UHGV virus genome: UHGV-0232315
DNA length: 35,654 bases
Reading direction: 5' to 3' (one strand)
Source: a virus
Shown: piece after piece, positions 384 through 32,924 of the stretch
Layout: each line of letters starts with the position of its first letter
Position numbering within the stretch: the first letter of the stretch is position 1
The notes under the pieces: generated by a model
Seen by the model: only the letters and a program-made list of their open reading frames with translations
What the model was told of the DNA's origin: nothing
The model's database searches: none
Translations under genes and position numbers: made by a program

Positions 384-941
384 TCACATAAACATCTGGA
401 TTTGCTCGTTTTTTAGTTGGTTGATTTTTTCGCGCAATCTGATCTTTTCATCAGCTTTTTCCAAAGAGGCTGGTGACATGCAGTTAATCAAAGCGTCAAG
501 GTGCTCTGGAGATTTGATAATAAAGAACTTTTTGTATTTATTAACAAAAACGACAGAGCATTTTTTACGTTTAAGAAGCTCAATCACGTTACTCAGAGTA
601 CCCGTGCTCTTCGTATCCCAAACCATTAATCCATAATCGGCTTCTTCTGCCATTTTGAGATCTTTCGCAGTGAAAAACGCGCGAGTGCCGGCTGCATGGC
701 TAGTACTTACTACATGTACAGGCCATGAGCCAAGATTATTGCGCGGTTTTTCTGAGCTACTGAATACTGTGGCTTTTTCACATCCAAGTTCTAGCAATAC
801 GCGTTGAACAGATGCATCAACACCATTGGCATCACCAACTACAATACGAAAACGCGAGTTAACAATTTTTTTCAGACGATCCACGATGAGTGTGTCAAGG
901 TTTTTGATGGTTATTGAACCAGCAACAAATACCGTAGTCAT
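384..941 (-). CDS. DprA/SLOG-like Rossmann-fold protein (ShosA-like candidate)
   Basis: ORF-track protein with VFVAGS, IVVGDANGVD (DprA-type GxARGID-like) and STGTLSNVIE (LOG-type PGGxGT-like) motifs; ORF-track start 953 is TTG, I place the start at ATG 941 preceded by GGAG; 2 nt after the upstream gene stop (translational coupling). Confidence 0.6.
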   Translation of the reverse strand: MTTVFVAGSITIKNLDTLIVDRLKKIVNSRFRIVVGDANGVDASVQRVLLELGCEKATVFSSSEKPRNNLGSWPVHVVSTSHAAGTRAFFTAKDLKMAEEADYGLMVWDTKSTGTLSNVIELLKRKKCSVVFVNKYKKFFIIKSPEHLDALINCMSPASLEKADEKIRLREKINQLKNEQIQMFM

Positions 942-943
942 CA

Positions 944-1525
944 CTATCTCCAAGTCAAAGCTGCAACATAAATGCTTCTAACCTTAGTATAATCGTTTAG
1001 CACAGCACAAGCAGCCTCCATAGATGCGCCTGTATGGTAAAGGTCGTCAATGATAAGGACATTCCAGTTGCCATTATTCTCAATACTGTCATTAACAGAG
1101 AACGAATTACCCAGCGCCGTGATTTTCTCTTCTTTTGTATTCAGGTTCTTTAGCGAAGCCCCGCCGGGGGCTTTCAACAAGAGGTCATCGAAGCATGGTT
1201 TGCCAACTAGTTTGGCTAGTTCCTGAGCTATTTCGGTCACTGGCTGGCGTGCACGCTGATTAGATGCAGCCATTGGAACGATAAACCCGACATTGCTGAA
1301 ATGAGGAAAGGCATGCTCTGCTAGGCATTGGGCTAAAGGCTTAACTTGTGACCAATCGTTACGGTATTTAAGCTGGAAAAGAGATTCGCCTACCTCAGTA
1401 CGCTCAGTCTCAAACCGCATATGTCCCCACTCATCGTAACCAATGGGAATGCTGCGGATGCTGTGTTTATCCATCGCAAGACCTAATTCCCAATTTCCAA
1501 CAATCTGTTTTATGTTGACTTTCAT
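944..1525 (-). CDS. Phosphoribosyltransferase (PRTase)-fold protein (ShosT-like candidate)
   Basis: Classic type I PRTase PRPP-binding motif VLIIDDLYHTGASM near the C-terminus; ATG start 1525; first gene of a two-gene minus-strand operon. Confidence 0.65.
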   Translation of the reverse strand: MKVNIKQIVGNWELGLAMDKHSIRSIPIGYDEWGHMRFETERTEVGESLFQLKYRNDWSQVKPLAQCLAEHAFPHFSNVGFIVPMAASNQRARQPVTEIAQELAKLVGKPCFDDLLLKAPGGASLKNLNTKEEKITALGNSFSVNDSIENNGNWNVLIIDDLYHTGASMEAACAVLNDYTKVRSIYVAALTWR

Positions 1526-1796: not shown

Positions 1797-1815
1797 GGCG
1801 TGGCGGGGATACGAG
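1797..1815. other. Possible cos (cohesive end) site
   Basis: GGCGTGGCGGGGATACGAG: first 13 nt match the P2/186 19-nt cohesive-end sequence as I recall it (GGCG[A/T]GGCGGGGAAAGCA..); lies in a 423-bp intergenic region next to a CATGCA-gg-TGCATG dyad (about 1758-1771). Confidence 0.35.
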
Positions 1816-1948
1816 CGCGCGTTATGACAAATAGATGATTAGCCTGATTTATTTACAGCTGTATAAATGATCACCTTGTAATTAGGTAAGTAATGTCTTC
1901 TATTATCATTGATTTGATAGGATTAATCTGTTTTTTGAGGATTAGAGG

Positions 1949-4285
1949 ATGATTGAAGAGGTAGTTATTGACAAGGTAGGCTCATATAATGGCCCTACGC
2001 AGCTTTTACATGGACTTTCTAAATTTAACTATTTATATGGAGCTAATGGTGCAGGTAAAACAACTATAAGTAAAATTATTAATGACCCTGAACAATATCC
2101 AACATGTCCGATTAAATGGAAAAATAATATATCTTTAATAAGCTACGTATATAATAAAGATTTTGTTGAAAGAAATTTTAGTCAAGATAAAATTAAAGGT
2201 GTATTTACCCTTGGTAGCGATCTTAAGGAGGATGAAGAGAAACTAATATCTCTTAAAGAAGAAAAAAATAAGCTAATGGAATCTATTATAGCAAAGGGAA
2301 AGTTAATAGATGGTGGTGATAATGAATTAGGCGTTATTAAAAAAATCGAAGACCATGAAAAATCTTTTAAAGATTCATGTTGGAAGCAAAAAGTAAAACA
2401 TGACAATGTGTTCTCAAAGGCTTTTGAGGGATTAAGGAATAGTAGTGAAAAATTTAAAGCCAGAGTGTTGGCTGAGTATGAAAATAATACATCAGAAGTT
2501 TGCTCAATAGCAGAGTTAATTGAGAAAGCAAAAATTGTTTTTTCTACTGAATTGACATCACATGTATCAATTACAATTCCATCCTTCAATGGGATAGATG
2601 ATATTTTGAGTAGGGAAATTTGGAGTGAGCGTATTCTAGGGAAAAAAGACGTTAGTGTTTCAGACTTAATTACAATGCTCAATAACAGTGATTGGGTTAA
2701 GGAGGGTTTAACATATTTCAGTAAATCTAATCCCAAGTGCCCATTCTGCCAGCAGGATGTAAATGATAATATATTTGATAATCTTTCATCATATTTTGAT
2801 AAAACATATGAGTTAAAAAAAAGAGAAATCGATGCATTGGTTTTACAATATGAATATCAACTTAATAATATCTTGAAGGCGATAGATGATATAAGGGCGA
2901 TTAAATCTCCATTCATAAATTATGAAGTGTTTGAGGATAAGGCTAAGATAGTATTATCTGAATTAAACAAGAATTTTGAATTGGCAAAAAATAAACGCAA
3001 TTTTTTAAGTGAATCAGTTCATTTTAGTGACTTAAGTGAAGTTGTTGATGATTTTATTTCTTTTTTGAATGATTCAAATCTATTGATAGATAATAATAAC
3101 AAAATATATAGTAATAGAAAGGTAGAGGCTAGTAATCTTTCTAAGCAGATATGGGCATATATCGTAAAGGTGGAGTTAAAGTCTGAAATAACTTCTTACC
3201 GTAGCAAATCTGATAAATTTAATAGGACGTTACAAGGACTTAAATCTGGGATAGAAGAAGACAAAAAGAAGTTAATGTTAAATACTTCGGCTATTGAGGC
3301 AATTGAGTCTAATAAAACCAGTACTCTTCCAACTATTACAAAAATTAACAAGATTCTGGACTCTTATGGCTTCAAAAATTTTTACTTAAAACCCTCCGAA
3401 GATAAAAAGCATTATATGATAGTAAGAGATAGTGGAGATAATGCTCGTACAACCCTTAGTGAGGGAGAAAAGACATTTATCACTTTTTTGTACTTTTATA
3501 GCCTTGTTAGAGGGAGTGATAATGCATCAGGTGTTTTAGATGATCGTGTTGTAGTATTTGATGATCCAATTTCAAGTTTAGATAGTGATATTCTGTTTAT
3601 TGTAAGTTCGTTGATTAAAGATTTAATGGAGGATGTTCGTAAGGATGAAGGAAATATTAAGCAAATTATATTCCTTACTCATAATATTTATTTTCATAAA
3701 GAGTTGACTTTTAATACCAAAAGATCCGGTAATCAAGCAATGAAAGAGGAGACTTTTTGGATTGTAAGGAAAAAAGGGAAGGTTTCATATCTTGAAAAGT
3801 GCGAATCAAACCCAATAAAAACGTCTTATGATTTGCTCTGGTGCGAATTGAGAAGAACAGACATTAATAATAATACTATACAAAATACAATGCGAAGGAT
3901 TTTGGAGAATTACTTTAAGATATTAGGTGGGATGGATATTAGGAAGCTTGAGTGTCATTTTTATGGTGATGAAAAAATCATATTTAAATCTTTAGTGTCA
4001 TGGATTAATGATGGTTCCCATTTTGCAGGTGATGATCTTTATATGAATTTAGATACGGAGTCTGTGCAAAAATATTTAATTGTTTTTCAGAAGATATTTG
4101 AATGTAGTGAGCATACTGCCCATTACAAAATGATGATGGGTGAGTTTTATAAACCGTTAAATGAGTCACTTCATCTACAAGATGAGTTTGATATAGATGA
4201 TAGTGCGAATGATGAGTATGCTTCGTCAAAAATTGAGATAAAAGATGGAATAAACACATCTCTACATAGCAACACATATTTGTAA
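1949..4285 (+). CDS. ABC-type (AAA_13-like) ATPase with coiled-coil CxxC hook; RloC/PrrC-like candidate anticodon nuclease
   Basis: Walker A GANGAGKT (aa 32-39), Walker B/D-loop VVVFDDPISSLD, internal CPFC motif between Walker motifs, C-terminal R-x3-E..H arrangement (RRILEN ... H); very AT-rich relative to phage backbone; GAGG RBS. Confidence 0.55.
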   Translation: MIEEVVIDKVGSYNGPTQLLHGLSKFNYLYGANGAGKTTISKIINDPEQYPTCPIKWKNNISLISYVYNKDFVERNFSQDKIKGVFTLGSDLKEDEEKLISLKEEKNKLMESIIAKGKLIDGGDNELGVIKKIEDHEKSFKDSCWKQKVKHDNVFSKAFEGLRNSSEKFKARVLAEYENNTSEVCSIAELIEKAKIVFSTELTSHVSITIPSFNGIDDILSREIWSERILGKKDVSVSDLITMLNNSDWVKEGLTYFSKSNPKCPFCQQDVNDNIFDNLSSYFDKTYELKKREIDALVLQYEYQLNNILKAIDDIRAIKSPFINYEVFEDKAKIVLSELNKNFELAKNKRNFLSESVHFSDLSEVVDDFISFLNDSNLLIDNNNKIYSNRKVEASNLSKQIWAYIVKVELKSEITSYRSKSDKFNRTLQGLKSGIEEDKKKLMLNTSAIEAIESNKTSTLPTITKINKILDSYGFKNFYLKPSEDKKHYMIVRDSGDNARTTLSEGEKTFITFLYFYSLVRGSDNASGVLDDRVVVFDDPISSLDSDILFIVSSLIKDLMEDVRKDEGNIKQIIFLTHNIYFHKELTFNTKRSGNQAMKEETFWIVRKKGKVSYLEKCESNPIKTSYDLLWCELRRTDINNNTIQNTMRRILENYFKILGGMDIRKLECHFYGDEKIIFKSLVSWINDGSHFAGDDLYMNLDTESVQKYLIVFQKIFECSEHTAHYKMMMGEFYKPLNESLHLQDEFDIDDSANDEYASSKIEIKDGINTSLHSNTYL

Positions 4286-4296
4286 TTTTATTACAA

Positions 4297-4326
4297 TTGC
4301 CAGTAGCAACAATACGGTACTGGCAA
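4297..4326. terminator. Hairpin between convergent genes (possible bidirectional terminator)
   Basis: TTGCCAGTA-(12 nt loop)-TACTGGCAA perfect 9-bp inverted repeat between the ATPase gene stop (4285) and Q stop (4335); followed on + strand by ctaatatttt. Confidence 0.4.
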
Positions 4327-4334
4327 CTAATATT

Positions 4335-5363
4335 TTAGTTAAGCTCATATGGAGAAAATTCTATAAGTTTTTCCCCGAGCCATGCATTAATTTCTCTAAA
4401 TCGTTTTTGCAAAGGAATTAATTCATTTATCACAAAAACCTTACTAGCCTTCTCCACATCCCCAAATCCCCCGACATTATTAGGCATAATCCCCATCATT
4501 TGCGGTGGAACGCGGTGTGCCGCCATCATGTCATCGCGACTAACATTTTTGATATTCAGAAACTCATCCTTCGCTGCGACTTCTGATAACGGGATAATCT
4601 GAAGCCCGTCCTTTTTGCCGTTAGGTGAGTACATAAACAGGTTGCGGAAGTTGCCCGGCCCTTTGGCGCTTTTCATCGCATTGCGGAGGTTGTTCACATC
4701 CTCCTGGTTTTGCGCGGCATCGGTCATGTACATGATAAAGCCCGCATGACTGCCGTTAATGTAATACTTGCGACGGAACAGCGTGGCGGACTCGTTGAGC
4801 AGGGCTGACGGAATGGCAGAAAGATAACCGGGCAGGCCGTAGATCTCCTGATTAATATCCGGTTCCATCAGATGAAAAATGCTGCCTTTCGTGAACTGAT
4901 ACGGCTGGGTTGTCATACCGTATTGCACAAACCAGTAGGTATCCAGGTCTAATCCGCGTCGGGTGTATTTTGCCAGCGCAGGTTCAAGGGCGATCACTTC
5001 ACCGAAGCGGTTCGTGCGTTTCTCCAGATAGGCGTTGCCAAATACCAGATAGTCCTGCACAAAACGCGAAAAAGCTTGCTGGCTGAGCAGAGGATGAGGG
5101 ATATAGGTACTGGTCAGAATGTTGCACTTTACTGCAATCGGGGAACTGTGATGCACGGCAGCGCGGAAGGTGCGCGCCAGTCCGTCAAAGCTGACGGGCG
5201 GCTCATACCAACGGTCCATCTGTACGCATTCCACATAGTCCAGTAATTCTCGGCGGTCCAGAACAGGAACGGGATCGCCGAAGCTGAATGCTTCGGCTGT
5301 AGTCTGGTTTTTATGCTGGATCTGATTCGTCGCCGCAGTGCGGTTTTTCTTACTCTTTCCCAT
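4335..5363 (-). CDS. Q: Portal protein (P2 gpQ-like)
   Basis: Protein MGKSKKNRTAA... with P2 Q-like length and position; ORF-track start 5366 is TTG, ATG at 5363 overlaps the stop of P (TGATG). Confidence 0.9.
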   Translation of the reverse strand: MGKSKKNRTAATNQIQHKNQTTAEAFSFGDPVPVLDRRELLDYVECVQMDRWYEPPVSFDGLARTFRAAVHHSSPIAVKCNILTSTYIPHPLLSQQAFSRFVQDYLVFGNAYLEKRTNRFGEVIALEPALAKYTRRGLDLDTYWFVQYGMTTQPYQFTKGSIFHLMEPDINQEIYGLPGYLSAIPSALLNESATLFRRKYYINGSHAGFIMYMTDAAQNQEDVNNLRNAMKSAKGPGNFRNLFMYSPNGKKDGLQIIPLSEVAAKDEFLNIKNVSRDDMMAAHRVPPQMMGIMPNNVGGFGDVEKASKVFVINELIPLQKRFREINAWLGEKLIEFSPYELN

Positions 5364-7129
5364 CAAAAAATCTCCACAATATTGCTGGTATTGGCGGACT
5401 CGCCCTGCAGCGGTTCGTTAAACAGTGCGTGCATCGTTGCCCAGGCCAGATCGGCGTGGCTGGCTTCTTCGCTGCGGCTGGCTTCATAGGTTGGGCGGTT
5501 GCCACTGGCGGTGGTTGCGCGACGGATTGCCATAAATGACTGCGCAATGTCGGTGTGCCCGGCGTCAAACTCCAGACGGCGGTGGCTGATAATGTCGTAG
5601 GCCTTGAGTACCAGGGCGTTTTTAACGTTGGGGTTGTAGACAAACTCCCGGACGGCAGGAAAGAACGCTTTCACGTTCTCGTAAACCCCGTGACCAACGC
5701 CGGTTGAGTCGATACCGATATAAGTCACGTTGTACTGCTCGGTAAGTTTTTTGATGGCGTCAGCCTGGGCGCGGAAGTCCATCCCGCGCCACTGGTGACG
5801 CTCAAGAATGCGGAACTTACCACCCGGCACGGCTGGCGGTGCCACCACCACGCATCCGGCGCTGTCGCCGTTTTGCGTACCTTTTGCCGGGTCATAACCG
5901 ATCCACACTTCGCGCCAGCCAAACGGGCGCAGCGCCAGTGCATGAAAGTCGGTCCAGATTTCCCAGCTGTCTACCATGCACGCCTGCAGCTCGCTGAGAG
6001 GGAACACGGACGCGAGATCGTCCACAAACTCGCACATCAGCAGGTTCTGGTATTCGTCCGGGCTGTACTCCATGCGCAACTGGTCAAGGTCGAACAGGTT
6101 ACAGCCGCCGCGCACCGCATCTTCCACGGTGACTATCTGGCGGTATTGCCCGTCTGCGCACAGCAGGCCGGGGGCCAGATTTCTGTGGGACAGGTCGATG
6201 TCCACCTTATCGGCTTTGTTGCGCCCACGGTTGAACAGCGCACCGGACCAGAACGGATAAGCACTGTGTGTCAGACTGGATGGCGTGGAAAAATAGGTTT
6301 GTCGCCATTTTTTGTGAATAGCCATACCGGAAGCCACTTTGCGCAGCTCCTGGAATTTCGGTATCCAGAAATATTCATCCAGATACAGGTTGCCGTGGTA
6401 ACTCTGGGCCGTGCGGGCATTGGTGCCGAGGAAGTAAAGCGTGGCCCCGTTAGGAAGCACCATCGGATCGCCTTTCAGCTCCACCTCGACTTCTTTGGCG
6501 AAGTCGATGATGTACTGCTTAAAGACGTGGGCCTGTGCCTTACTGGCGGAAAGGAAAATCTGGTTACGTCCGGTAAGCAGAGCGTCAATCAGGGCTTCAC
6601 GGGCAAAGTAAAAGGTCGCGCCGATCTGGCGTGATTTCAGCAGGTTGCGGATGCGGTTGGTTTTTCCGGCTTCCCACCAGTGGCGCTGGTAGTTGAACAT
6701 GGAGGAATGGAAGATTTCTTCCAGCTTCTCAATCTGTTCATCGGTGAAAACATTCTTTTCCGGCTGACGGCGCGGGCCTTTGTTGCGGTTGGCGACGTTA
6801 GGGTTTAAGTCGGCTTCGTTGCCGCCATTGTTAAACTTGCCGATGCGCGCGTGGCGCTCCGACTGGCGCGCCAGCAGGTCAATCTCTTTGAAATCTTTCC
6901 CTTCTTTGTGCTCCTTCATAATGAGCTGGCAGTAGCGTGCGGCGGTGGTGAGCTGCATCTGATCCAGCGGCCCATAGTCACCCCACTTGTCGCGTTTTTT
7001 CCAGCTATGAACGGTTGCAACTTTCTCGCCCAGCATTTCAGCAATGCGGGCGACGCGGTATCCCTGAAAGTACAGCAGCATGGCCTGCCGACGGGGATCG
7101 AGATCTGCGGGTGTCAGTGTGGTGTTCAT
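5363..7129 (-). CDS. P: Terminase large (ATPase) subunit (P2 gpP-like)
   Basis: 588-aa product upstream of Q in the divergent P2 arrangement; ATG 7129. Confidence 0.9.
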   Translation of the reverse strand: MNTTLTPADLDPRRQAMLLYFQGYRVARIAEMLGEKVATVHSWKKRDKWGDYGPLDQMQLTTAARYCQLIMKEHKEGKDFKEIDLLARQSERHARIGKFNNGGNEADLNPNVANRNKGPRRQPEKNVFTDEQIEKLEEIFHSSMFNYQRHWWEAGKTNRIRNLLKSRQIGATFYFAREALIDALLTGRNQIFLSASKAQAHVFKQYIIDFAKEVEVELKGDPMVLPNGATLYFLGTNARTAQSYHGNLYLDEYFWIPKFQELRKVASGMAIHKKWRQTYFSTPSSLTHSAYPFWSGALFNRGRNKADKVDIDLSHRNLAPGLLCADGQYRQIVTVEDAVRGGCNLFDLDQLRMEYSPDEYQNLLMCEFVDDLASVFPLSELQACMVDSWEIWTDFHALALRPFGWREVWIGYDPAKGTQNGDSAGCVVVAPPAVPGGKFRILERHQWRGMDFRAQADAIKKLTEQYNVTYIGIDSTGVGHGVYENVKAFFPAVREFVYNPNVKNALVLKAYDIISHRRLEFDAGHTDIAQSFMAIRRATTASGNRPTYEASRSEEASHADLAWATMHALFNEPLQGESANTSNIVEIF

Positions 7130-13090: not shown

Positions 13091-13621
13091 TTACGCACTT
13101 AATAAACTTAAATAACTTTTTATGCTTTGGCAAAAAGGGAAAAGGTCTATTTTAATTTTCCAGTTTTTTTTGTTTTGAACCCCAGAAGCAATAATAGAAC
13201 CATCCCAATATTTTATTCCATTTTTGCCGGTCTTTTTTGTTAACTCAAAACTTAATGCGTGAATAATTTTATTGCAGCATTCGCGTATAGAACCTTTAAC
13301 ATGACCATCTATAACAAAAAGTATATTTTCATGTTCTTCAAATGCTTCTTTCTCAGGTGAGTAATCTGGGTTCCACTCATGTTCATTAGTGTCTTGGAGA
13401 ATTCGTAGTTTTGTACAAAGGCTAATAAGATTGTTGCTAATGGTATATTCCAACCATCCGTTGTACGATAACTCCTCCATTTCAAATTCAGTTACTATAG
13501 AACCATCATATACTTTCTGTGTGGAATATATACGCTGTAAATAAAATTCAGATGAACAGCATAATTGCTCAATTATTCTTGCGTGTTCTTCTATAGCGTA
13601 ATAATCAATTGGATGGCTCAT
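13091..13621 (-). CDS. Hypothetical protein encoded by an AT-rich island between S and V (P2 orf30 position)
   Basis: ORF 13091-13660 on the strand opposite to the tail operon; likely start ATG 13621 (MSHPIDYY...) with GAAAGG RBS; no motif I recognise. Confidence 0.6.
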   Translation of the reverse strand: MSHPIDYYAIEEHARIIEQLCCSSEFYLQRIYSTQKVYDGSIVTEFEMEELSYNGWLEYTISNNLISLCTKLRILQDTNEHEWNPDYSPEKEAFEEHENILFVIDGHVKGSIRECCNKIIHALSFELTKKTGKNGIKYWDGSIIASGVQNKKNWKIKIDLFPFCQSIKSYLSLLSA

Positions 13622-13652
13622 TCTTTTACCTTTCTTCGATTGGAATTGTATT

Positions 13653-13670
13653 TGTGTCATTTACCACACA
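13653..13670. promoter_or_regulatory. TGT-N12-ACA dyad upstream of V (candidate late promoter element)
   Basis: TGTgtcatttaccacACA; centre is only 55 bp from the V ATG and overlaps the 5' end of the antisense island ORF. Confidence 0.4.
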
Positions 13671-25891: not shown

Positions 25892-26944
25892 TTACGGGGT
25901 AATGCCAACCGCTGCCGCCACTTTGCCGCCACTTGGCAGCGTTGCCAGAGGATTGAAACGGAGCGCCGTTTCCAGATGATCCGGTGCCAGATGAGCGTAA
26001 CGCATAGTCATTTTTATATCGTGATGTCCGAGGATTTTTTGCAAAGCAAGGATATTTCCACCCGACATCATGAAATGTGCCGCAAACGTATGGCGCAGAA
26101 CGTGTGTCAGTTGACCGCGAGGGAGCACGATTGACGTTTTTTCCATCACGGATAAAAATTGAAAATAGCAGTCTGTGAAGAAATTGAACCCATCAAGCGC
26201 CATGATCTCTTCATAAAGCTCTTTACTGATAGGGATGCTTCTGTTTTTCTTCCCCTTCGTTCTTACAAAGGTAATTCGGTATTTAGTCACCTGTGATCGG
26301 GTAAGGTTTATTGCTTCTCGCCAGCGTGCGCCTGTGCTTAAGCATATCTTGACTACCAGTGCCAGAATTGGGTCCTGACGTTTGCAATCAGCCAGCAGTT
26401 CAACAATCTGCTCATGGGTAAGCCATGCCATCTCTTTTTCTGCGATGGTGAATTTTCGCATGTTCTCCAGTGGGTTTGGATACGACCATTCGCCCAGGCG
26501 GGATAGTTCGCTAAAAACACTACTTAGATAGCTTTGCTCCAGGTTAATGGTGACCGGGCTGGCTCCTTTCTTCCATTTCTCGCTGAAGTAGATCTCACCT
26601 GTCAGGCGTTTATCTCGATAGTGGGCAAACATTTTAGAGGTGAGATCGGTTGCAAGAGGATTGCCCAGAGCGTCAACCATCAGCAGCAATTTGTCATAGA
26701 CATGCTGCCCAGCAGTCAGAGATTTACCATGTAATTTGAACCATAGCTCAACCACGTCTTTCAGTGTTCGACGATCCACTGATTCACCTAGCCAAGGCTT
26801 TGCTTCGGTTTCTTCCATCGTGTGACGCTCAAAAGCCAGAGCTTCGCCTTTGGTGGCGAATTGTTTACGCACACGACGTCCACTACGTCCGGCGGGATAA
26901 CATTCGCACAGCCATTTTCCTGTGGTGAGTTTTCGTACTGCCAT
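25892..26944 (-). CDS. int: Tyrosine integrase
   Basis: 350 aa MAVRKLTTGKWLCECYPAGRSGRRVRKQF... with C-terminal ...HVLRHTFAAHFMMSGGNILALQKILGHHDIKMTMRYAHL catalytic region (R..H-x-x-R..Y). Confidence 0.9.
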   Translation of the reverse strand: MAVRKLTTGKWLCECYPAGRSGRRVRKQFATKGEALAFERHTMEETEAKPWLGESVDRRTLKDVVELWFKLHGKSLTAGQHVYDKLLLMVDALGNPLATDLTSKMFAHYRDKRLTGEIYFSEKWKKGASPVTINLEQSYLSSVFSELSRLGEWSYPNPLENMRKFTIAEKEMAWLTHEQIVELLADCKRQDPILALVVKICLSTGARWREAINLTRSQVTKYRITFVRTKGKKNRSIPISKELYEEIMALDGFNFFTDCYFQFLSVMEKTSIVLPRGQLTHVLRHTFAAHFMMSGGNILALQKILGHHDIKMTMRYAHLAPDHLETALRFNPLATLPSGGKVAAAVGITP

Positions 26945-27026: not shown

Positions 27027-28358
27027 TCATTGGAGCAAGAAAACTTTTAAGGTGTTTTTGAATATTCTAACAGGGTCTTCTACACCTGCATTTCCTTTTA
27101 AAATATGATAATCACTTATTTCAGCCCATCTGTTTTTTTCATCGTTTTCAGAAGGAAGTAAAGGAGAACCTTCTGGCATATATTTATAAGTTATACCAAA
27201 TAATGCATAATAGTAGATGTTGATGTTATATTGATCTGTCTGATATGGGAGTCTATTAACACCGAAGAAATTAATTATTAATTGTGCATCTATTTTATCT
27301 TCTACGTAGTTAAGGGCCAGTTCACGACCAAACGAATAAAGAATTACTGCAAGGGTTCGATAACAGCAATAGCCTGGTATAAATTTATTGCTGATTTCAT
27401 TTTGAGATAAAATTTGATAAATTTCTAGATATCTTGATAAGGTTTCAACTTCCCGTAGCGACAAGCCTTTTAGTTCGATAAATTTTTGAACTATATGAAT
27501 ACTACTTTCTCCAATTTCTTTTAGTCTTTCAGACTCGTTACATAGCATTCTAAAATGAGAGTTCGAAGCCAAAATTTTATCGTAATTGTTTTCAGTGAAA
27601 GTCACTGGCAGGCTGTAAGTGAATTTTATAAATTTATCAAGATATCTTTCTGAGTCAACACCTGCACCGTAAATATGATTTATTGATGCTTTCAATTGTG
27701 AGATGTTAGCAACTAACAAGAAGTTAAGATTTTCAGTGTCAAAAACATGTTTTATATTTTCGATGATAGAGATGGCAAAGCTTGGTTTACAACGGTCAAG
27801 TTCGTCAATGATAATTGTTATTTTATTTTCGCTAGTTAGTTCAGCAAGTACTTCCTTGAGAGCAAGCAAATGTTTCTTTGCTTCAATATGATCATCAAGC
27901 AGTGCTTCTACAGTACCATCTATAGCTGAGTTAGCCGCATCTTTAATAGCATCTTCGAATTCATCCGCAATATCATCTGCATTTTGTTTTAAAATCCACC
28001 CAGCGCCAGCTTTGAGTACAGTTTTAAGTCCAAATCTCAATGCTGGTAATGCCTTTGATATTAATTCCTTCTTTTCACTCTCTGGATATAATGCAACTAT
28101 TGCAGCCATTATAGTAAGTATGGGAGCATCATTATGATCTTCAGTAAATGCATCAATATATACTACTTTATGCCCAGATTCATTTTTTTCAATCAATGCC
28201 GCTAATTTTTTTGAAAATTCGGTTTTACCGGTACCCCAGTCCCCATCGATAACAATAGGGGATATTTTTAAGGGGGACTCGAGTAAGCTTATTATTTTTT
28301 CAGCAATGATTTTTCTATTATACTCATCTCTGTTTTCAAAAGTCATATCATTATTCAT
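27027..28358 (-). CDS. KAP-family P-loop NTPase
   Basis: Walker A GDWGTGKT (GxWGxGKT KAP signature) and Walker B IIIDELDRC; ORF-track start 28367 is TTG, I place the start at ATG 28358 after AAGG; AT-rich. Confidence 0.65.
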   Translation of the reverse strand: MNNDMTFENRDEYNRKIIAEKIISLLESPLKISPIVIDGDWGTGKTEFSKKLAALIEKNESGHKVVYIDAFTEDHNDAPILTIMAAIVALYPESEKKELISKALPALRFGLKTVLKAGAGWILKQNADDIADEFEDAIKDAANSAIDGTVEALLDDHIEAKKHLLALKEVLAELTSENKITIIIDELDRCKPSFAISIIENIKHVFDTENLNFLLVANISQLKASINHIYGAGVDSERYLDKFIKFTYSLPVTFTENNYDKILASNSHFRMLCNESERLKEIGESSIHIVQKFIELKGLSLREVETLSRYLEIYQILSQNEISNKFIPGYCCYRTLAVILYSFGRELALNYVEDKIDAQLIINFFGVNRLPYQTDQYNINIYYYALFGITYKYMPEGSPLLPSENDEKNRWAEISDYHILKGNAGVEDPVRIFKNTLKVFLLQ

Positions 28359-28369
28359 ATGAAGCAACC

Positions 28370-28578: not shown

Positions 28579-29142
28579 TTAATAATTGACGATCGCGCTT
28601 CTAATTTTTCCTATGATATCAATTTCATCTATTTTGCATTCAAAGGAACTGCTGCCACCATCGACATTTAGACGACGTCCCGGCAGTCTTGTCAGATTCC
28701 TGATAGCAACCTCGCCATCAATATCAACGATCCACTTACCATCACGTACATCCTCATAATCCGAATCACAGATAAACTCTGATGCGCCATCGATCACAAC
28801 AAAAGGTTTTTTTAGTTTTTCAGGCAAAAAGTTGTTGTCGAAAATGTAGTAACCATCAGGAAGTAGTTTTCCGCTTGATAAAATCTTCCTTTCGATCTCT
28901 TTTGTGTTTTCTTTTTGTGAACTTTCTTTTGAACCTTGCCCAGTAGTTAGCCACTCTAGCGACGTGCCGGTTTCAAGTGCACATTGGATTACCCATTCTG
29001 CCGGGAATGAATCACGCATATAGCGCGTGGCTAAGGTGCTTTTAGAAATGCCCAAATGATCACACAAAGCTTGTCTTGTCTTGAAACCATAGGCTTCAAC
29101 CATGCGCTCTATGGCCCCACGACCGCCTTTTTCCAAATTCAT
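28579..29142 (-). CDS. cI: Immunity repressor CI (phage 186 CI-like)
   Basis: ORF 28579-29148 (GTG); ATG 29142 after GGAG; N-terminal HTH region and C-terminal ...[27 protein letters not shown]... resembling 186 CI. Confidence 0.8.
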
Positions 29143-29267
29143 GGTCACTCCAAGTGAACTTTTACCTTGACGATTTCATGATGTGATCGTATGTTTGCAG
29201 TGTTCACATAATACAAACGATCAGTATTCATCCTGATTAATCATTGCTAAAAGAGGAATGTTGCATC
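29143..29267. promoter_or_regulatory. Lysis-lysogeny switch region (divergent pL/pR-type promoters and operators)
   Basis: Intergenic region between divergent cI and apl; dyads GTGAAC(29155-29160)/GTTCAC(29212-29217) and TGATCGT(29184-29190)/ACGATCA(29217-29223); two GATC sites. Confidence 0.5.
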
Positions 29268-30845: not shown

Positions 30846-31072
30846 TGGCTGATGCAATGGATCTCGTACAGCAGCGCGTTGAAGAAGAACGCCAGCGCCA
30901 TATCCGTGCTGCCCGTGCCAAAACACCGGGCGTGTCACGCGTACTTTGCATTGAATGTGAAGCGCCAATTCCGCCAGCACGACGCCGCGCCATTCCGGGA
31001 GTGCAGCTTTGCATTACCTGTCAGGAAATCGCAGAACTGAAAGGCAAACATTACAACGGAGGTGCTGTATGA
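30845..31072 (+). CDS. TraR/DksA-family C4 zinc-finger protein
   Basis: CIECEAPIP...CITCQ four-Cys motif at the C-terminus of a 75-aa protein; TAATG overlap upstream and ATGA overlap downstream. Confidence 0.7.
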   Translation: MADAMDLVQQRVEEERQRHIRAARAKTPGVSRVLCIECEAPIPPARRRAIPGVQLCITCQEIAELKGKHYNGGAV

Positions 31073-31917
31073 GCACCATCCTGAAATGGGCGGGAAATAA
31101 AACGGCCATTATGGCAGAACTGAAAAAATACCTTCCTGCTGGCCCGCGACTGGTTGAACCTTTCGCGGGTTCCTGTGCAGTGATGATGGAGACGGATTAC
31201 CCCAGCTATCTGGTTGCGGATATTAATCCTGATTTAATCAACCTCTATAAAAAGGTTGCCGCTGATTGTGAATCGTTTATATCTCGCGCCAGAGTTTTAT
31301 TTGAGAACGCAAACAGGGAGATGGCTTATTACAACATAAGGCAGGAGTTTAATTACTCAACTGAAATTACTGATTTCATGAAAGCAGTATATTTCCTGTA
31401 TCTCAATCGTCACGGTTACCGTGGTTTATGTCGCTATAACAAGAGCGGGCATTTCAACATTCCCTACGGTAATTATAAAAATCCGTATTTCCCTGAAAAA
31501 GAAATTCGTGCATTTGCAGAAAAAGCCCAGCGGGCAACATTTATCTGCGCCAGCTTCGATGAAACGCTGGCAATGTTGCACGCGGGGGATGTTGTGTATT
31601 GCGATCCGCCTTATGACGGTACGTTTTCCGGCTATCACACTGACGGCTTCACTGAAGATGACCAGTATCACCTGGCATCCGTTCTTGAACATCGGTCATC
31701 AGAAGGACATCCGGTCATTGTTTCTAACAGTGACACATCCCTGATCCGTTCGCTGTATCGCAATTTCACTCACCACTACATCAAGGCAAAACGCAGCATT
31801 GGCGTGTCAGCTGGCGAGAGTAAATCTGCAACAGAAATCATTGCCACCAAATCAGCTGGGTGGTTTGGTGTCGATTTTGCCAGCGGCTCTGACCGTACCG
31901 TTGAGGTACGCGCATGA
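31069..31917 (+). CDS. dam: DNA N6-adenine methyltransferase (Dam/D12 class)
   Basis: ORF 31009-31917; ATG 31069 after GGAGGTG; N-terminal KWAGNK and catalytic DPPY ([10 protein letters not shown]) motifs. Confidence 0.85.
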
Positions 31918-32924
31918 ATGCTATCGATCCGCGTTGCTTTGCCTCAGGCACCATTAACGTCATCACTACTTCTGGTGGCAAAGATAGTCTCGCTCAATGG
32001 CTAAGAGCCATTGAAAACGATGTTCCGCATATTTCTGTATTTGCCGATACGGGTCATGAACATCCACAGACAATAGAATATCTGGATTATCTGGAATCAA
32101 AGCTGGGCAAGATTATTCGCGTCAAAGCGGATTTCACACGCCAGATAGAAGGGAAACGTAAATTCATTGCGGAAAAGTGGCCCATTTCTCTCGTTGAGGA
32201 ATGTGGTATGTCGACAGATGAGGCTGAGGAACGTATTTACCGGGCACTGGAAATCCTTAAACCAACCGGCGTTCCGTTTCTTGATTTGTGCATGTGGAAA
32301 GGTCGCTTCCCTTCAACAAAAGCTCGTTTCTGCACTTTTGAACTGAAACATGAACCAATACGTACACAGGTAATCGATCCAGCTCTGGATGAATACGATG
32401 AGGTAATCAGCTGGCAAGGAGTCCGGGGGCAGGAATCACCGGAACGTGCATTGTTGCCTGAGTGGGAGGACGATGCAGACAATACTCTGGGGCTGCATGT
32501 TTATCGTCCGATCCTTAATTGGCTGCATGAGGATGTGTTTGCTATTGCCAAACGTCATGGCATTAAGCCTAACCCCCTTTATATGCAGGGATGCAGTCGT
32601 GTCGGTTGTATGCCATGCATTCATGCTCGCAAGTCAGAACTTGGAGAGATTTTCCAACGCTGGCCAGAAGAAATCCGCCGAGTGGCTGAGTGGGAAAGAC
32701 TGGTTGCGGAATGTTCAAGACGTGGCAATTCAACGTTCTTTCCATCCACGCATGATCCGCGCCGTGCTGAAAAACGGATCGAAGTCATAACTGTTGATGC
32801 TTATGGTATTGAAACTTATCGGGACTGGGCCTTAACGACTCGGGGCGGTATGCAGTTTGACCTGCTGGCAGGCATGAATGATAAAGCGGTGTGCAGCAGT
32901 GTATATGCAGGAGTCTGTGAGTGA
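31914..32924 (+). CDS. PAPS-reductase/DndC-like PP-loop ATP pyrophosphatase family protein
   Basis: PP-loop TSGGKDS near the N-terminus, C-terminal Cys cluster [10 protein letters not shown]; ATGA overlap with the dam stop. Confidence 0.7.

What the first reader, a model, noticed from the sequence alone, without database searches (positions are those of the whole stretch)
1949..4285. AT-rich 778-aa ABC ATPase with internal CxxC hook and PrrC-like C-terminus (RloC-like candidate) between cos and the portal gene
Walker A (GANGAGKT) and Walker B/D-loop (VVVFDDPISSLD) are separated by ~500 aa of predicted coiled coil carrying a CPFC motif, the Rad50-like zinc-hook architecture described for the anticodon nuclease RloC. 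The C-terminal ~200 aa contain an R-x3-E...H arrangement like the PrrC/RloC nuclease triad. Composition is far more AT-rich than the phage backbone, indicating horizontal acquisition. It occupies the slot that holds tin/old in P2.
Basis: partly seen in the sequence, partly recalled or inferred. Interest (0 to 1): 0.6.

Follow-up and report, generated by a model that had tools for sequence, protein, structure and literature searches.

The report
RloC-like tRNA nuclease on P2-like phage

Summary
ORF 1949-4285 (+) encodes a 778-aa protein at 30.5% GC, against about 55% for the backbone. It has Walker A (K37), one CxxC (CPFC 264-267), ABC signature (503-508), Walker B/D-loop (534-545), H-loop (H578) and R649-X3-E653-X37-S690-H691. 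It lies between cos (1797-1815) and the portal gene.

- Pfam AAA_13 matches end to end (1e-163), and a PADLOC PrrC model matches residues 460-704.
- The protein aligns full-length with E. coli APEC O1 YP_852004, an RloC orthologue listed by the family's discoverers and also carried on a P2-like prophage.
- It meets every sequence criterion of the 2008 RloC definition.
- Across 111 homologues, both cysteines and R649 are invariant, and E653/S690/H691 are at least 90% conserved.
- The AF2 model is confident and its best structural match is Rad50.
- There is no TOPRIM domain, partner gene or R-M linkage.

One correction: P2's tin and old lie on the other side of cos.

This is a new member of a known kind. 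Rousset et al. 2022 already list "AAA_13, RloC-like" as a common P2-hotspot system, and a 97% allele appears in their table. Activity, tRNA target and trigger remain untested. The HEPN fold could not be confirmed structurally.

The parts
1797..1815 (+). cos cohesive-end sequence GGCGTGGCGGGGATACGAG (186/Fels-2 type); left boundary of the cargo slot
   Evidence: Exact pattern found. The P2 cosR flank aligns to 1765-1809 at 80% identity. Conserved P2-like DNA ends at about 1823.
1816..1948 (+). AT-rich leader of the gene. It holds no ORF and has a Shine-Dalgarno-like GAGG at 1937-1940, 8 nt before the ATG. No promoter was identified.
   Evidence: Sequence read. The consensus scan found no sigma-70-like site here.
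1949..4285 (+). RloC-like gene, 778 aa: ABC ATPase with helical/CxxC insert and C-terminal PrrC/RloC-type nuclease domain
   Evidence: dN/dS is 0.14 against the strain D2 allele.
2039..2062 (+). Walker A GANGAGKT (aa 31-38, K37)
   Evidence: G31, N33, G36 and K37 are invariant in 111 sequences.
2225..3364 (+). Helical insert (aa 93-472) between the two halves of the ATPase head; carries the CxxC near its midpoint
2738..2749 (+). CPFC (aa 264-267), putative zinc hook
   Evidence: It is the only CxxC in the protein. C264, P265 and C267 are invariant; F266 and Q268 are at least 97% conserved. It aligns with CPFC of APEC O1 RloC and CPYC of the Javan105 RloC-annotated protein.
3455..3472 (+). ABC signature LSEGEK (aa 503-508)
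   Evidence: L503, S504, G506 and E507 are invariant.
3548..3583 (+). Walker B and D-loop VVVFDDPISSLD (aa 534-545)
   Evidence: D538, D539, P540 and S543 are invariant.
3680..3682 (+). H-loop (linchpin) His578
   Evidence: H578 and N579 are invariant.
3806..4153 (+). C-terminal helical domain (aa ~620-735), the predicted anticodon-nuclease domain. It holds N646, R649-R650, E653 (nt 3893-3907), S690-H691 (nt 4016-4021) and an invariant H725 in the motif H-x-x-H-Y-x-M-M-M.
   Evidence: The PADLOC PrrC model covers aa 460-704. Conservation is shown. E-to-H spacing is 36-39 residues in 110 of 111 sequences, within the X36-52 of the RloC definition. The loop at 691-696 has pLDDT below 50.
4154..4282 (+). 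Acidic, predicted-disordered C-terminal tail (aa 736-778); most homologues lack it
   Evidence: pLDDT is below 50 for 745-778. Tail lengths across the alignment are; a tail of similar length is seen in the 64% P2-borne relative P0004 and a few others.
4298..4325 (.). Hairpin TTGCCAGTA...TACTGGCAA between the convergent RloC-like and portal genes; likely a bidirectional terminator
   Evidence: Folding energy is -16.7 kcal/mol (z -4.8) on the + strand and -16.3 kcal/mol (z -3.3) on the - strand. P2 has the tQ terminator at the equivalent place.
4335..5366 (-). Portal gene (gpQ homologue); right boundary of the cargo slot
   Evidence: Its 3' end (4335-4500) is AT-rich, GC 0.34-0.38.

Best explanation
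The gene encodes a stand-alone RloC-family anticodon nuclease carried as lysogenic-conversion cargo by a 186/Fels-2-type P2-like phage. The proposed mechanism comes from Geobacillus kaustophilus RloC by homology. Two ABC-ATPase heads dimerise. The long helical insert folds back and presents the invariant CPFC, and two protomers are thought to share a zinc ion there, which keeps the C-terminal nuclease silent. When a competing phage infects, DNA ends or DNA damage bound by the head stimulate ATP hydrolysis and release this brake. The nuclease (R649, E653, H691) then cuts tRNA anticodon loops, possibly excising the wobble base so that phage tRNA-repair enzymes cannot reseal it. Translation stops and the infection aborts. 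Shown here: the gene is intact and under purifying selection, all ATPase, hook and nuclease motifs are present and conserved, it is homologous to recognised RloC orthologues, it has a Rad50-like head fold, it has no partner gene, and it sits at phage and satellite defence hotspots. Inferred only: zinc binding, DNA-end sensing, tRNA as the substrate, wobble excision and anti-phage activity.
For: - Pfam AAA_13 matches residues 10-718 to model positions 2-713 of 713, E 1e-163.
- PADLOC PDC-S06 scores 1e-266 and the PrrC model 5.5e-11 over aa 460-704.
- Homologues at 42-45% identity are named 'wobble nucleotide-excising tRNase' by JGI and NCBI.
- Streptococcus phage homologues are annotated 'translation-disabling ACNase RloC'.
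- The protein aligns full-length at 27% identity (E 4e-45) with APEC O1 WP_000423308, 738 aa, in a P2-like prophage. That protein matches YP_852004, RloC orthologue no. 51 in Davidov & Kaufmann's Table S1.
- It fits the RloC definition: Arg-X3-Glu-X36-52-His with Ser before His, a CXXC insert, PrrC-like ABC motifs and 658-897 aa (PMC2610378). The window protein has R649-X3-E653-X37-S690-H691 and is 778 aa.
- Conservation in 111 sequences is shown.
- dN/dS is 0.14, with all replacements outside the catalytic modules.
- Relatives sit in the same cos-to-portal slot of another P2-like prophage, in the cos-int hotspot of a P4-like satellite, and in defence islands next to CBASS or RT genes.
- Experimental basis for the mechanism: GkaRloC R692A, E696A and H737A abolish nuclease activity, C291G hyperactivates it, and K44 and D572 are needed for activation (PMC2610378 and PMC3458546).
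Against: - Identity to recognised RloC orthologues is only 26-27%. I could not obtain the full GkaRloC sequence for a direct alignment.
- No experiment exists on this clade. Rousset et al. do not list it among validated P2 systems, and PADLOC treats it only as a candidate (PDC-S06).
- The AF2 monomer does not show one long two-stranded coiled coil. The N-terminal arm is a series of short helices and the CxxC sits in a small beta-hairpin with lower confidence.
- DSBs alone did not activate the native Acinetobacter RloC (PMC3458546), so the trigger is uncertain even for the family.
- The Javan105 RloC-annotated homologue has Asp at the E653 position and no aligned His.
Confidence: 0.75

Rival explanations
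1. It is an ABC-ATPase-RNase of the PrrC/RloC superfamily but functionally distinct from GkaRloC. It would have a different RNA target (another tRNA set, or rRNA/mRNA), simple incision rather than wobble excision, or a trigger other than DNA ends, such as a phage protein.
For: Identity to recognised RloCs is only 26-27%. PADLOC gives it its own candidate family, PDC-S06, rather than a named system. The clade has extra invariant features that the 2008 definition does not mention (H725 in H-x-x-H-Y-x-M-M-M) and, in P2-borne members, an acidic disordered tail. Other ABC-ATPase defence proteins at this hotspot, PARIS and OLD, sense phage proteins or DNA structures and cut specific tRNAs.
Against: All RloC-defining sequence features are present with the same order and spacing. 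Nothing in the sequence points to a different substrate.
Confidence: 0.17
2. It is a Rad50/SbcC/LmuB-like DNA-end-binding SMC protein. Its C-terminal domain is regulatory rather than catalytic, and it acts on DNA, alone or with an unlinked nuclease.
Against: There is no Mre11/SbcD, LmuA or LmuC gene next to it, and the gene stands alone in every context examined. The LmuB match is far weaker than AAA_13 or PDC-S06. The C-terminal R/E/S-H residues are as conserved as the ATPase motifs, which fits a catalytic role. Rad50 and SbcC lack this C-terminal region (PMC2610378).
Confidence: 0.05
3. It is an OLD/Gabija-type ATPase-TOPRIM nuclease, like the old gene that P2 carries at this hotspot.
Against: No TOPRIM, OLD or GajA model matches in Pfam, NCBIfam or PADLOC. 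The C-terminal domain is all-helical.
Confidence: 0.01
4. The gene serves the phage itself, for example in packaging at the adjacent cos site or as a counter-defence, rather than defending the lysogen.
For: It starts 134 bp downstream of cos. The 64%-identity relative in another P2-like prophage and the 52%-identity relative in a P4-like satellite start 146 and 255 bp downstream of cos.
Against: Only 23 of 5,426 complete E. coli genomes carry it, although about 1,270 have a related portal region. 77 of 86 related viral contigs carry other DNA of 0.5-3.5 kb in this interval, so the slot is a general cargo site. Relatives occur across many phyla outside phages.
Confidence: 0.02

Closest known systems
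RloC (Geobacillus kaustophilus RloC, YP_146738; Davidov & Kaufmann 2008; Klaiman et al. 2012)
   Same: Single polypeptide of similar size (778 vs 804 aa). The order and spacing of functional residues match: K37/C267/D538/E653/H691 here, K44/C291/D572/E696/H737 in GkaRloC. It has the Arg-X3-Glu-X37-Ser-His motif, a CxFC hook followed by L..[HY]F, and no linked R-M system.
   Different: No direct full-length alignment with GkaRloC was possible here. The hook reads CPFCQ rather than the H-x5-C-x-F-C-G form printed for GkaRloC and most orthologues in that paper's Fig. S1. This protein has an extra acidic tail. Activity is untested.
E. coli APEC O1 RloC (YP_852004 / WP_000423308; 'APECO1_4465' ABC-HEPN group of Anantharaman et al. 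2013)
   Same: Also carried by a P2-like prophage in the gpA-to-portal hotspot. The two align collinearly end to end, with CPFC, RxILExYF and GSH all aligned.
   Different: Only 27% identical. The APEC O1 gene lies on the gpA side of cos (the old/tin side) and is transcribed in the opposite direction.
P2-hotspot system #5 'AAA_13, RloC-like' of Rousset et al. 2022 (Table S5B, 420 occurrences)
   Same: Same Pfam family, same hotspot, same published label. A 97% allele of the window protein (WP_061357951) is listed as AAA_13 in their Table S5A.
   Different: Their printed representative is only 25% identical to the window protein over the N-terminal 400 aa. They do not report it as experimentally validated.
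PrrC anticodon nuclease (E. coli EcoPrrC)
   Same: It shares the ABC motifs and the Arg-X3-Glu...His nuclease triad. The PADLOC PrrC model matches aa 460-704.
   Different: PrrC is 341-416 aa, lacks the helical/CxxC insert, and is always embedded in a type Ic R-M locus that silences it. None of that applies here.
P2 Old (ABC ATPase-TOPRIM, recently reported as an abortive tRNase)
   Same: Prophage-borne, single-protein ABC-ATPase defence at the P2 cos-proximal hotspot, reported to kill by tRNA cleavage (bioRxiv 10.64898/2026.07.10.737580).
   Different: The effector domain is unrelated (TOPRIM vs PrrC/RloC-type helical nuclease). Old has no CxxC insert and lies on the other side of cos.

Membership tests
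RloC (Davidov & Kaufmann 2008) | [quoted passage not shown] | tested here: met
   K37, LSEGEK 503-508, VVVFDD/SSLD 534-545 and H578 are all invariant or nearly so in 111 homologues.
RloC (Davidov & Kaufmann 2008) | Long helical (coiled-coil) insert in the ATPase domain carrying a CXXC zinc-hook motif | tested here: met
   The helical insert spans aa 93-472, with the single CPFC at 264-267 within about 10 residues of its midpoint. C264 and C267 are invariant. The top structural match is Rad50.
RloC (Davidov & Kaufmann 2008) | C-proximal Arg-X3-Glu-X36-52-His motif, Ser often preceding His | tested here: met
   R649-X3-E653-X37-S690-H691. Counts in 111 sequences: R649 111, E653 107 (the rest Asp), S690 109, H691 109.
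RloC (Davidov & Kaufmann 2008) | Size 658-897 aa, single gene, usually not linked to a type I/III R-M locus | tested here: met
   778 aa. The neighbours are cos, the portal gene and a PRTase/DprA-like pair, with no hsd genes.
RloC (Davidov & Kaufmann 2008) | Sequence homology to a recognised orthologue | tested here: met
   27% identity, full length, E 4e-45 to APEC O1 YP_852004-equivalent WP_000423308. Pfam AAA_13 matches end to end. GkaRloC itself was not available for alignment.
RloC (Davidov & Kaufmann 2008) | Anticodon nuclease activity that excises the wobble nucleotide; zinc-responsive; activated by a DNA-dependent ATPase | not testable with these tools
   Biochemical properties. Known only for GkaRloC (PMC2610378, PMC3458546).
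PrrC | 341-416 aa, no coiled-coil/CXXC insert | tested here: not met
   778 aa with an insert of about 380 aa. The PrrC HMM covers only aa 460-704.
PrrC | Embedded in a type Ic R-M (hsd) locus that silences it | tested here: not met
   No R-M genes flank the gene here or in the other E. coli loci.
OLD / Gabija GajA (ABC ATPase-TOPRIM) | C-terminal TOPRIM nuclease domain | tested here: not met
   There is no TOPRIM, OLD or GajA hit in Pfam, NCBIfam or PADLOC. The C-terminal domain is all-alpha.
Rad50/SbcC and Lamassu LmuB | Works with a partner encoded alongside (Mre11/SbcD, or LmuA +/- LmuC); no C-terminal nuclease domain of its own | tested here: not met
   No partner gene is present in any context examined. 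A conserved C-terminal domain is present. The LmuB model scores 4e-13 against 1e-266 for PDC-S06.
HEPN superfamily (assignment of PrrC/RloC/APECO1_4465 by Anantharaman et al. 2013) | Four-helix HEPN fold with an Rx4-6H catalytic motif | tested here: inconclusive
PADLOC candidate system PDC-S06 | Match to the PDC-S06 HMMs | tested here: met
   PDLC04890 scores E 1e-266, with aa 1-734 on model positions 1-726 of 732.

The most novel reading that the evidence does not exclude
The PDC-S06 clade may be a functionally separate branch of the PrrC/RloC superfamily. Its marks are a CPFCQ hook, an additional invariant His725 in an H-x-x-H-Y-x-M-M-M motif and, in the P2- and P4-borne members, an acidic disordered tail. 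Its trigger or RNA target could differ from GkaRloC. For example, it might sense the free cos ends or replication intermediates of incoming phages rather than damage-induced breaks. Allelic variation is concentrated in the helical insert, which would fit an arms race at a sensing surface.
Probability: 0.17. Interest if true: 0.45.

Novelty: new member of a known kind. Interest (0 to 1): 0.25.

Why it matters
This gene adds a clean, intact example of an RloC-type anticodon nuclease on a P2-like phage. [quoted passage not shown] RloC is listed in defence-system catalogues, yet its biochemistry rests on one thermophile orthologue. Neither sequence searches of PDB chains nor the papers searched turned up a solved structure of the family. 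An E. coli-native, prophage-borne member would be a convenient model for asking what triggers RloC during infection and which tRNAs it cuts. The finding does not change how the family or the P2 hotspot is understood.

Tried and rejected
- Sequence and profile searches of PDB chains found no solved relative, only weak Walker-A-region hits to AriA, Rad50 and SMC.
- A tblastn search of plasmids with the C-terminal half returned only 'AAA family ATPase' annotations, so it gave no named PrrC for direct alignment.
- The full GkaRloC sequence could not be retrieved. Only an OCR fragment of its hook region in the paper's supplement was seen.
- The exact P2 cos sequence has no match within 3 mismatches. 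cos was found through its 186-type variant and flank homology.
- I tested whether cargo on the portal side of cos is unusual. It is not: 77 of 86 IMG/VR contigs with this cos type have 0.5-3.5 kb there.
- The consensus scan gave no convincing promoter upstream of the gene.
- The main texts of Rousset 2022, Vassallo 2022 and the 2026 NAR P2/P4 paper do not discuss RloC. Only Rousset's supplementary tables do.
Full report
**Observation**

The ORF listing finds an ATG-initiated ORF at 1949..4285 on the + strand encoding 778 aa.
- GANGAGKT at residues 31-38
- a single CxxC, CPFC, at 264-267
- the ABC signature LSEGEK at 503-508
- VVVFDDPISSLD at 534-545
- an H-loop His at 578
- RRILENYF at 649-656
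- NDGSH at 687-691

The gene is 30.5% G+C (GC3 25%), against 54-60% for the structural genes and GC3 of 57-70% for portal and terminase.

**Position**

The exact P2 cos sequence is absent. The 186/Fels-2-type variant GGCGTGGCGGGGATACGAG lies at 1797-1815, and the DNA to its left aligns with the cosR flank of P2. Homology to other P2-like phages stops at about 1823. The portal gene runs 4335..5366 on the minus strand. A strong hairpin at 4298-4325 separates the two convergent genes.

The gene thus fills the cos-to-portal interval, which is only 167 bp in P2. P2's tin and old lie on the other side of cos. In this window that side holds a PRTase plus DprA-like pair.

I asked whether cargo on the portal side is unusual, and it is not. 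Of 86 IMG/VR contigs with this cos type and a downstream portal gene, 77 have 0.5-3.5 kb in the interval, and two carry this same gene.

**Family assignment**

- Pfam AAA_13 matches residues 10-718 against model positions 2-713 of 713, at E 1e-163.
- PADLOC's candidate single-gene system PDC-S06 matches at 1e-266. Its PrrC model matches residues 460-704 at 5.5e-11, and an LmuB model matches more weakly at 4e-13.
- No TOPRIM, OLD or Gabija model matches in any library.
- Homologues at 42-45% identity are named 'wobble nucleotide-excising tRNase' by JGI and NCBI.
- Streptococcus prophage homologues at 26% identity are annotated 'translation-disabling ACNase RloC'.

The paper that defined RloC gives explicit criteria (PMC2610378):
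- PrrC-like ABC motifs
- a coiled-coil insert with CXXC
- a C-proximal Arg-X3-Glu-X36-52-His motif, with Ser often before the His
- 658-897 aa
- rare R-M linkage

The window protein has R649-X3-E653-X37-S690-H691 and meets every sequence criterion.

That paper's Table S1 lists E. coli APEC O1 YP_852004 (738 aa, neighbours 'phage replication initiation, capsid') as an RloC orthologue. I located a 738-aa AAA ATPase between gpA and portal in the APEC O1 P2-like prophage. The window protein aligns with it end to end (27% identity, E 4e-45), with CPFC, RxILExYF and GSH in register.

**Conservation**

An exhaustive HMMER search of 1.84 billion cluster representatives finds 3,672 relatives at E ≤ 0.001 and 1,122 at E ≤ 1e-30. 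Nearly all are collinear over residues 1 to about 731. In an alignment of 111 sequences at 26-64% identity to the query:
- K37, C264, P265, C267, S504, G506, E507, D538, D539, H578, N646, R649 and H725 are invariant.
- E653 is Glu in 107 sequences and Asp in 4.
- S690 and H691 are each conserved in 109.
- The Glu-to-His spacing is 36-39 residues in 110 of the 111.

Between the window allele and the 97.7% strain D2 allele, dN/dS is 0.14. All 18 replacements fall in the helical insert or the tail, and none falls in the ATPase or nuclease modules.

**Structure**

AF2 with the 109-sequence alignment gives mean pLDDT 88.8 and pTM 0.68.
- The head is a split ABC fold.
- Residues 93-472 are helical, with long helices on the C-terminal arm and shorter, interrupted ones on the N-terminal arm.
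- The CPFC lies in a small beta-hairpin near the midpoint of the insert.
- The C-terminal 620-735 region is a helical bundle.
- The H691 loop and the tail (745-778) have low confidence.

**Context elsewhere**

- The gene is present in 23 of 5,426 complete E. coli genomes, always beside the portal gene, while the cargo on the gpA side of cos varies: ComF+hypothetical, KAP NTPase, DarTG, DUF2971.
- Its 90% cluster has 626 members.
- A 64% relative occupies the same cos-to-portal position in another P2-like prophage.
- A 52% relative lies between cos and int of a P4-like satellite, which is the P4 hotspot.
- More distant relatives stand alone in defence-island-like settings, next to CBASS or reverse-transcriptase genes, and occur across many phyla.
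- No conserved partner gene was seen anywhere.

**Mechanism**

The proposed mechanism comes from G. kaustophilus RloC by homology. ABC heads dimerise. The CxxC hooks of two protomers are thought to share a zinc ion and hold the nuclease off. DNA binding stimulates ATP hydrolysis, which switches the nuclease on. The nuclease then cuts anticodon loops and can excise the wobble nucleotide, defeating phage tRNA repair (PMC2610378, PMC3458546).

For the window protein, only the sequence and fold prerequisites are shown. Zinc binding, the trigger, the substrate and any anti-phage effect are inferred. Even for the family the physiological trigger is unsettled, because DSBs alone did not activate the native Acinetobacter enzyme.

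**Novelty**

RloC orthologues in a P2-like prophage were recorded in 2008. Prophage-borne ABC-HEPN proteins of this group were discussed in 2013. Rousset et al. 2022 list 'AAA_13, RloC-like' as the fifth most common P2-hotspot system, with 420 occurrences, and list a 97% allele of this very protein (WP_061357951) as AAA_13. Their printed representative is only 25% identical to the window protein, and they do not report validating it.

The window protein is thus a divergent but recognisable new member of a known kind, at a known hotspot.

Noticed in passing
window 384-1525 (- strand): 944..1525 and 384..953: A ComF/phosphoribosyltransferase-like gene (PADLOC ShosT 9e-9, PsyrT 1e-7; NCBIfam ComF) overlaps a downstream 189-aa gene with a weak PsyrA/DprA-like match. 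This looks like the DprA + PRTase two-gene system that Rousset et al. 2022 validated at the P2 hotspot. It lies on the gpA side of cos, where P2 has tin/old.
   Followed up: partly
window 27027-28367 (- strand): An AT-rich (GC 0.33) KAP-family P-loop NTPase gene sits between the integrase (25892..26944) and the CI repressor (28579..29148). PADLOC candidate PDC-S20 matches at 1e-171, with weaker PifA and QatA matches. It may be a second defence cargo at a different site of the same phage.
   Followed up: partly
window 13091-13660 (- strand): A 189-aa ORF in a sharp AT-rich island (GC 0.32, GC3 0.26) inside the late-gene region has no Pfam or PADLOC match. It is possibly a third cargo gene.
   Followed up: partly
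window 31009-32924 (+ strand): A Dam-like N6-adenine methyltransferase (Pfam MethyltransfD12, 6e-76) is followed by a PAPS-reductase-like protein (PADLOC SspD 5e-23; weaker BrxP and DndC), just upstream of replication gene A.
   Followed up: partly
whole window (1-35654): The gene order is DinI, cargo, cos, cargo, portal, then the intervening late-gene region (not annotated here), integrase, CI, then gpA at the very end. This suggests the window is a circularly permuted complete genome of a 186/Fels-2-type P2-like phage rather than a chromosomal slice.
   Followed up: partly
IMG/VR loci L070-L189; window 1816-4334: Among 86 viral contigs with the same 19-nt cos and a downstream portal gene, only 9 have the short (100-200 bp) cos-to-portal spacer seen in P2. 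The other 77 carry 0.5-3.5 kb there. The portal side of cos is therefore a widely used cargo slot in this lineage.
   Followed up: yes
L010 1030-3569 (P4-like satellite, E. coli GCA_012710875.1): A 52%-identical relative (P0017, 761 aa) lies directly after cos, between psu and int of a P4-like satellite. The same clade therefore occupies the cos-adjacent hotspots of both helper phage and satellite.
   Followed up: partly
window 4335-4500 (3' end of the portal gene): The last ~165 bp of the portal gene are AT-rich (GC 0.34-0.38), like the cargo. The recombination junction of the island may therefore lie inside the portal gene.
   Followed up: no
window 4154-4282 (aa 736-778): An acidic, predicted-disordered C-terminal tail (DEFDIDDSANDEY...) is present in this protein, in its 64% P2-borne relative and in a few others, but most homologues lack it. 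Its function is unknown.
   Followed up: partly
window 2255-2395 and 2855-3286 (aa 103-149 and 303-446): 17 of the 18 amino-acid differences between the window allele and the strain D2 allele cluster in two stretches of the helical insert. The 18th, K765E, is in the C-terminal tail (nt 4241-4243). The ATPase head and the nuclease domain are identical.
   Followed up: partly
L004 2423-4684 (Streptococcus phage Javan105): The homologue annotated 'translation-disabling ACNase RloC' has Asp at the position of E653 and no His aligned with H691. That annotation may cover a variant with a shifted or altered active site.
   Followed up: no
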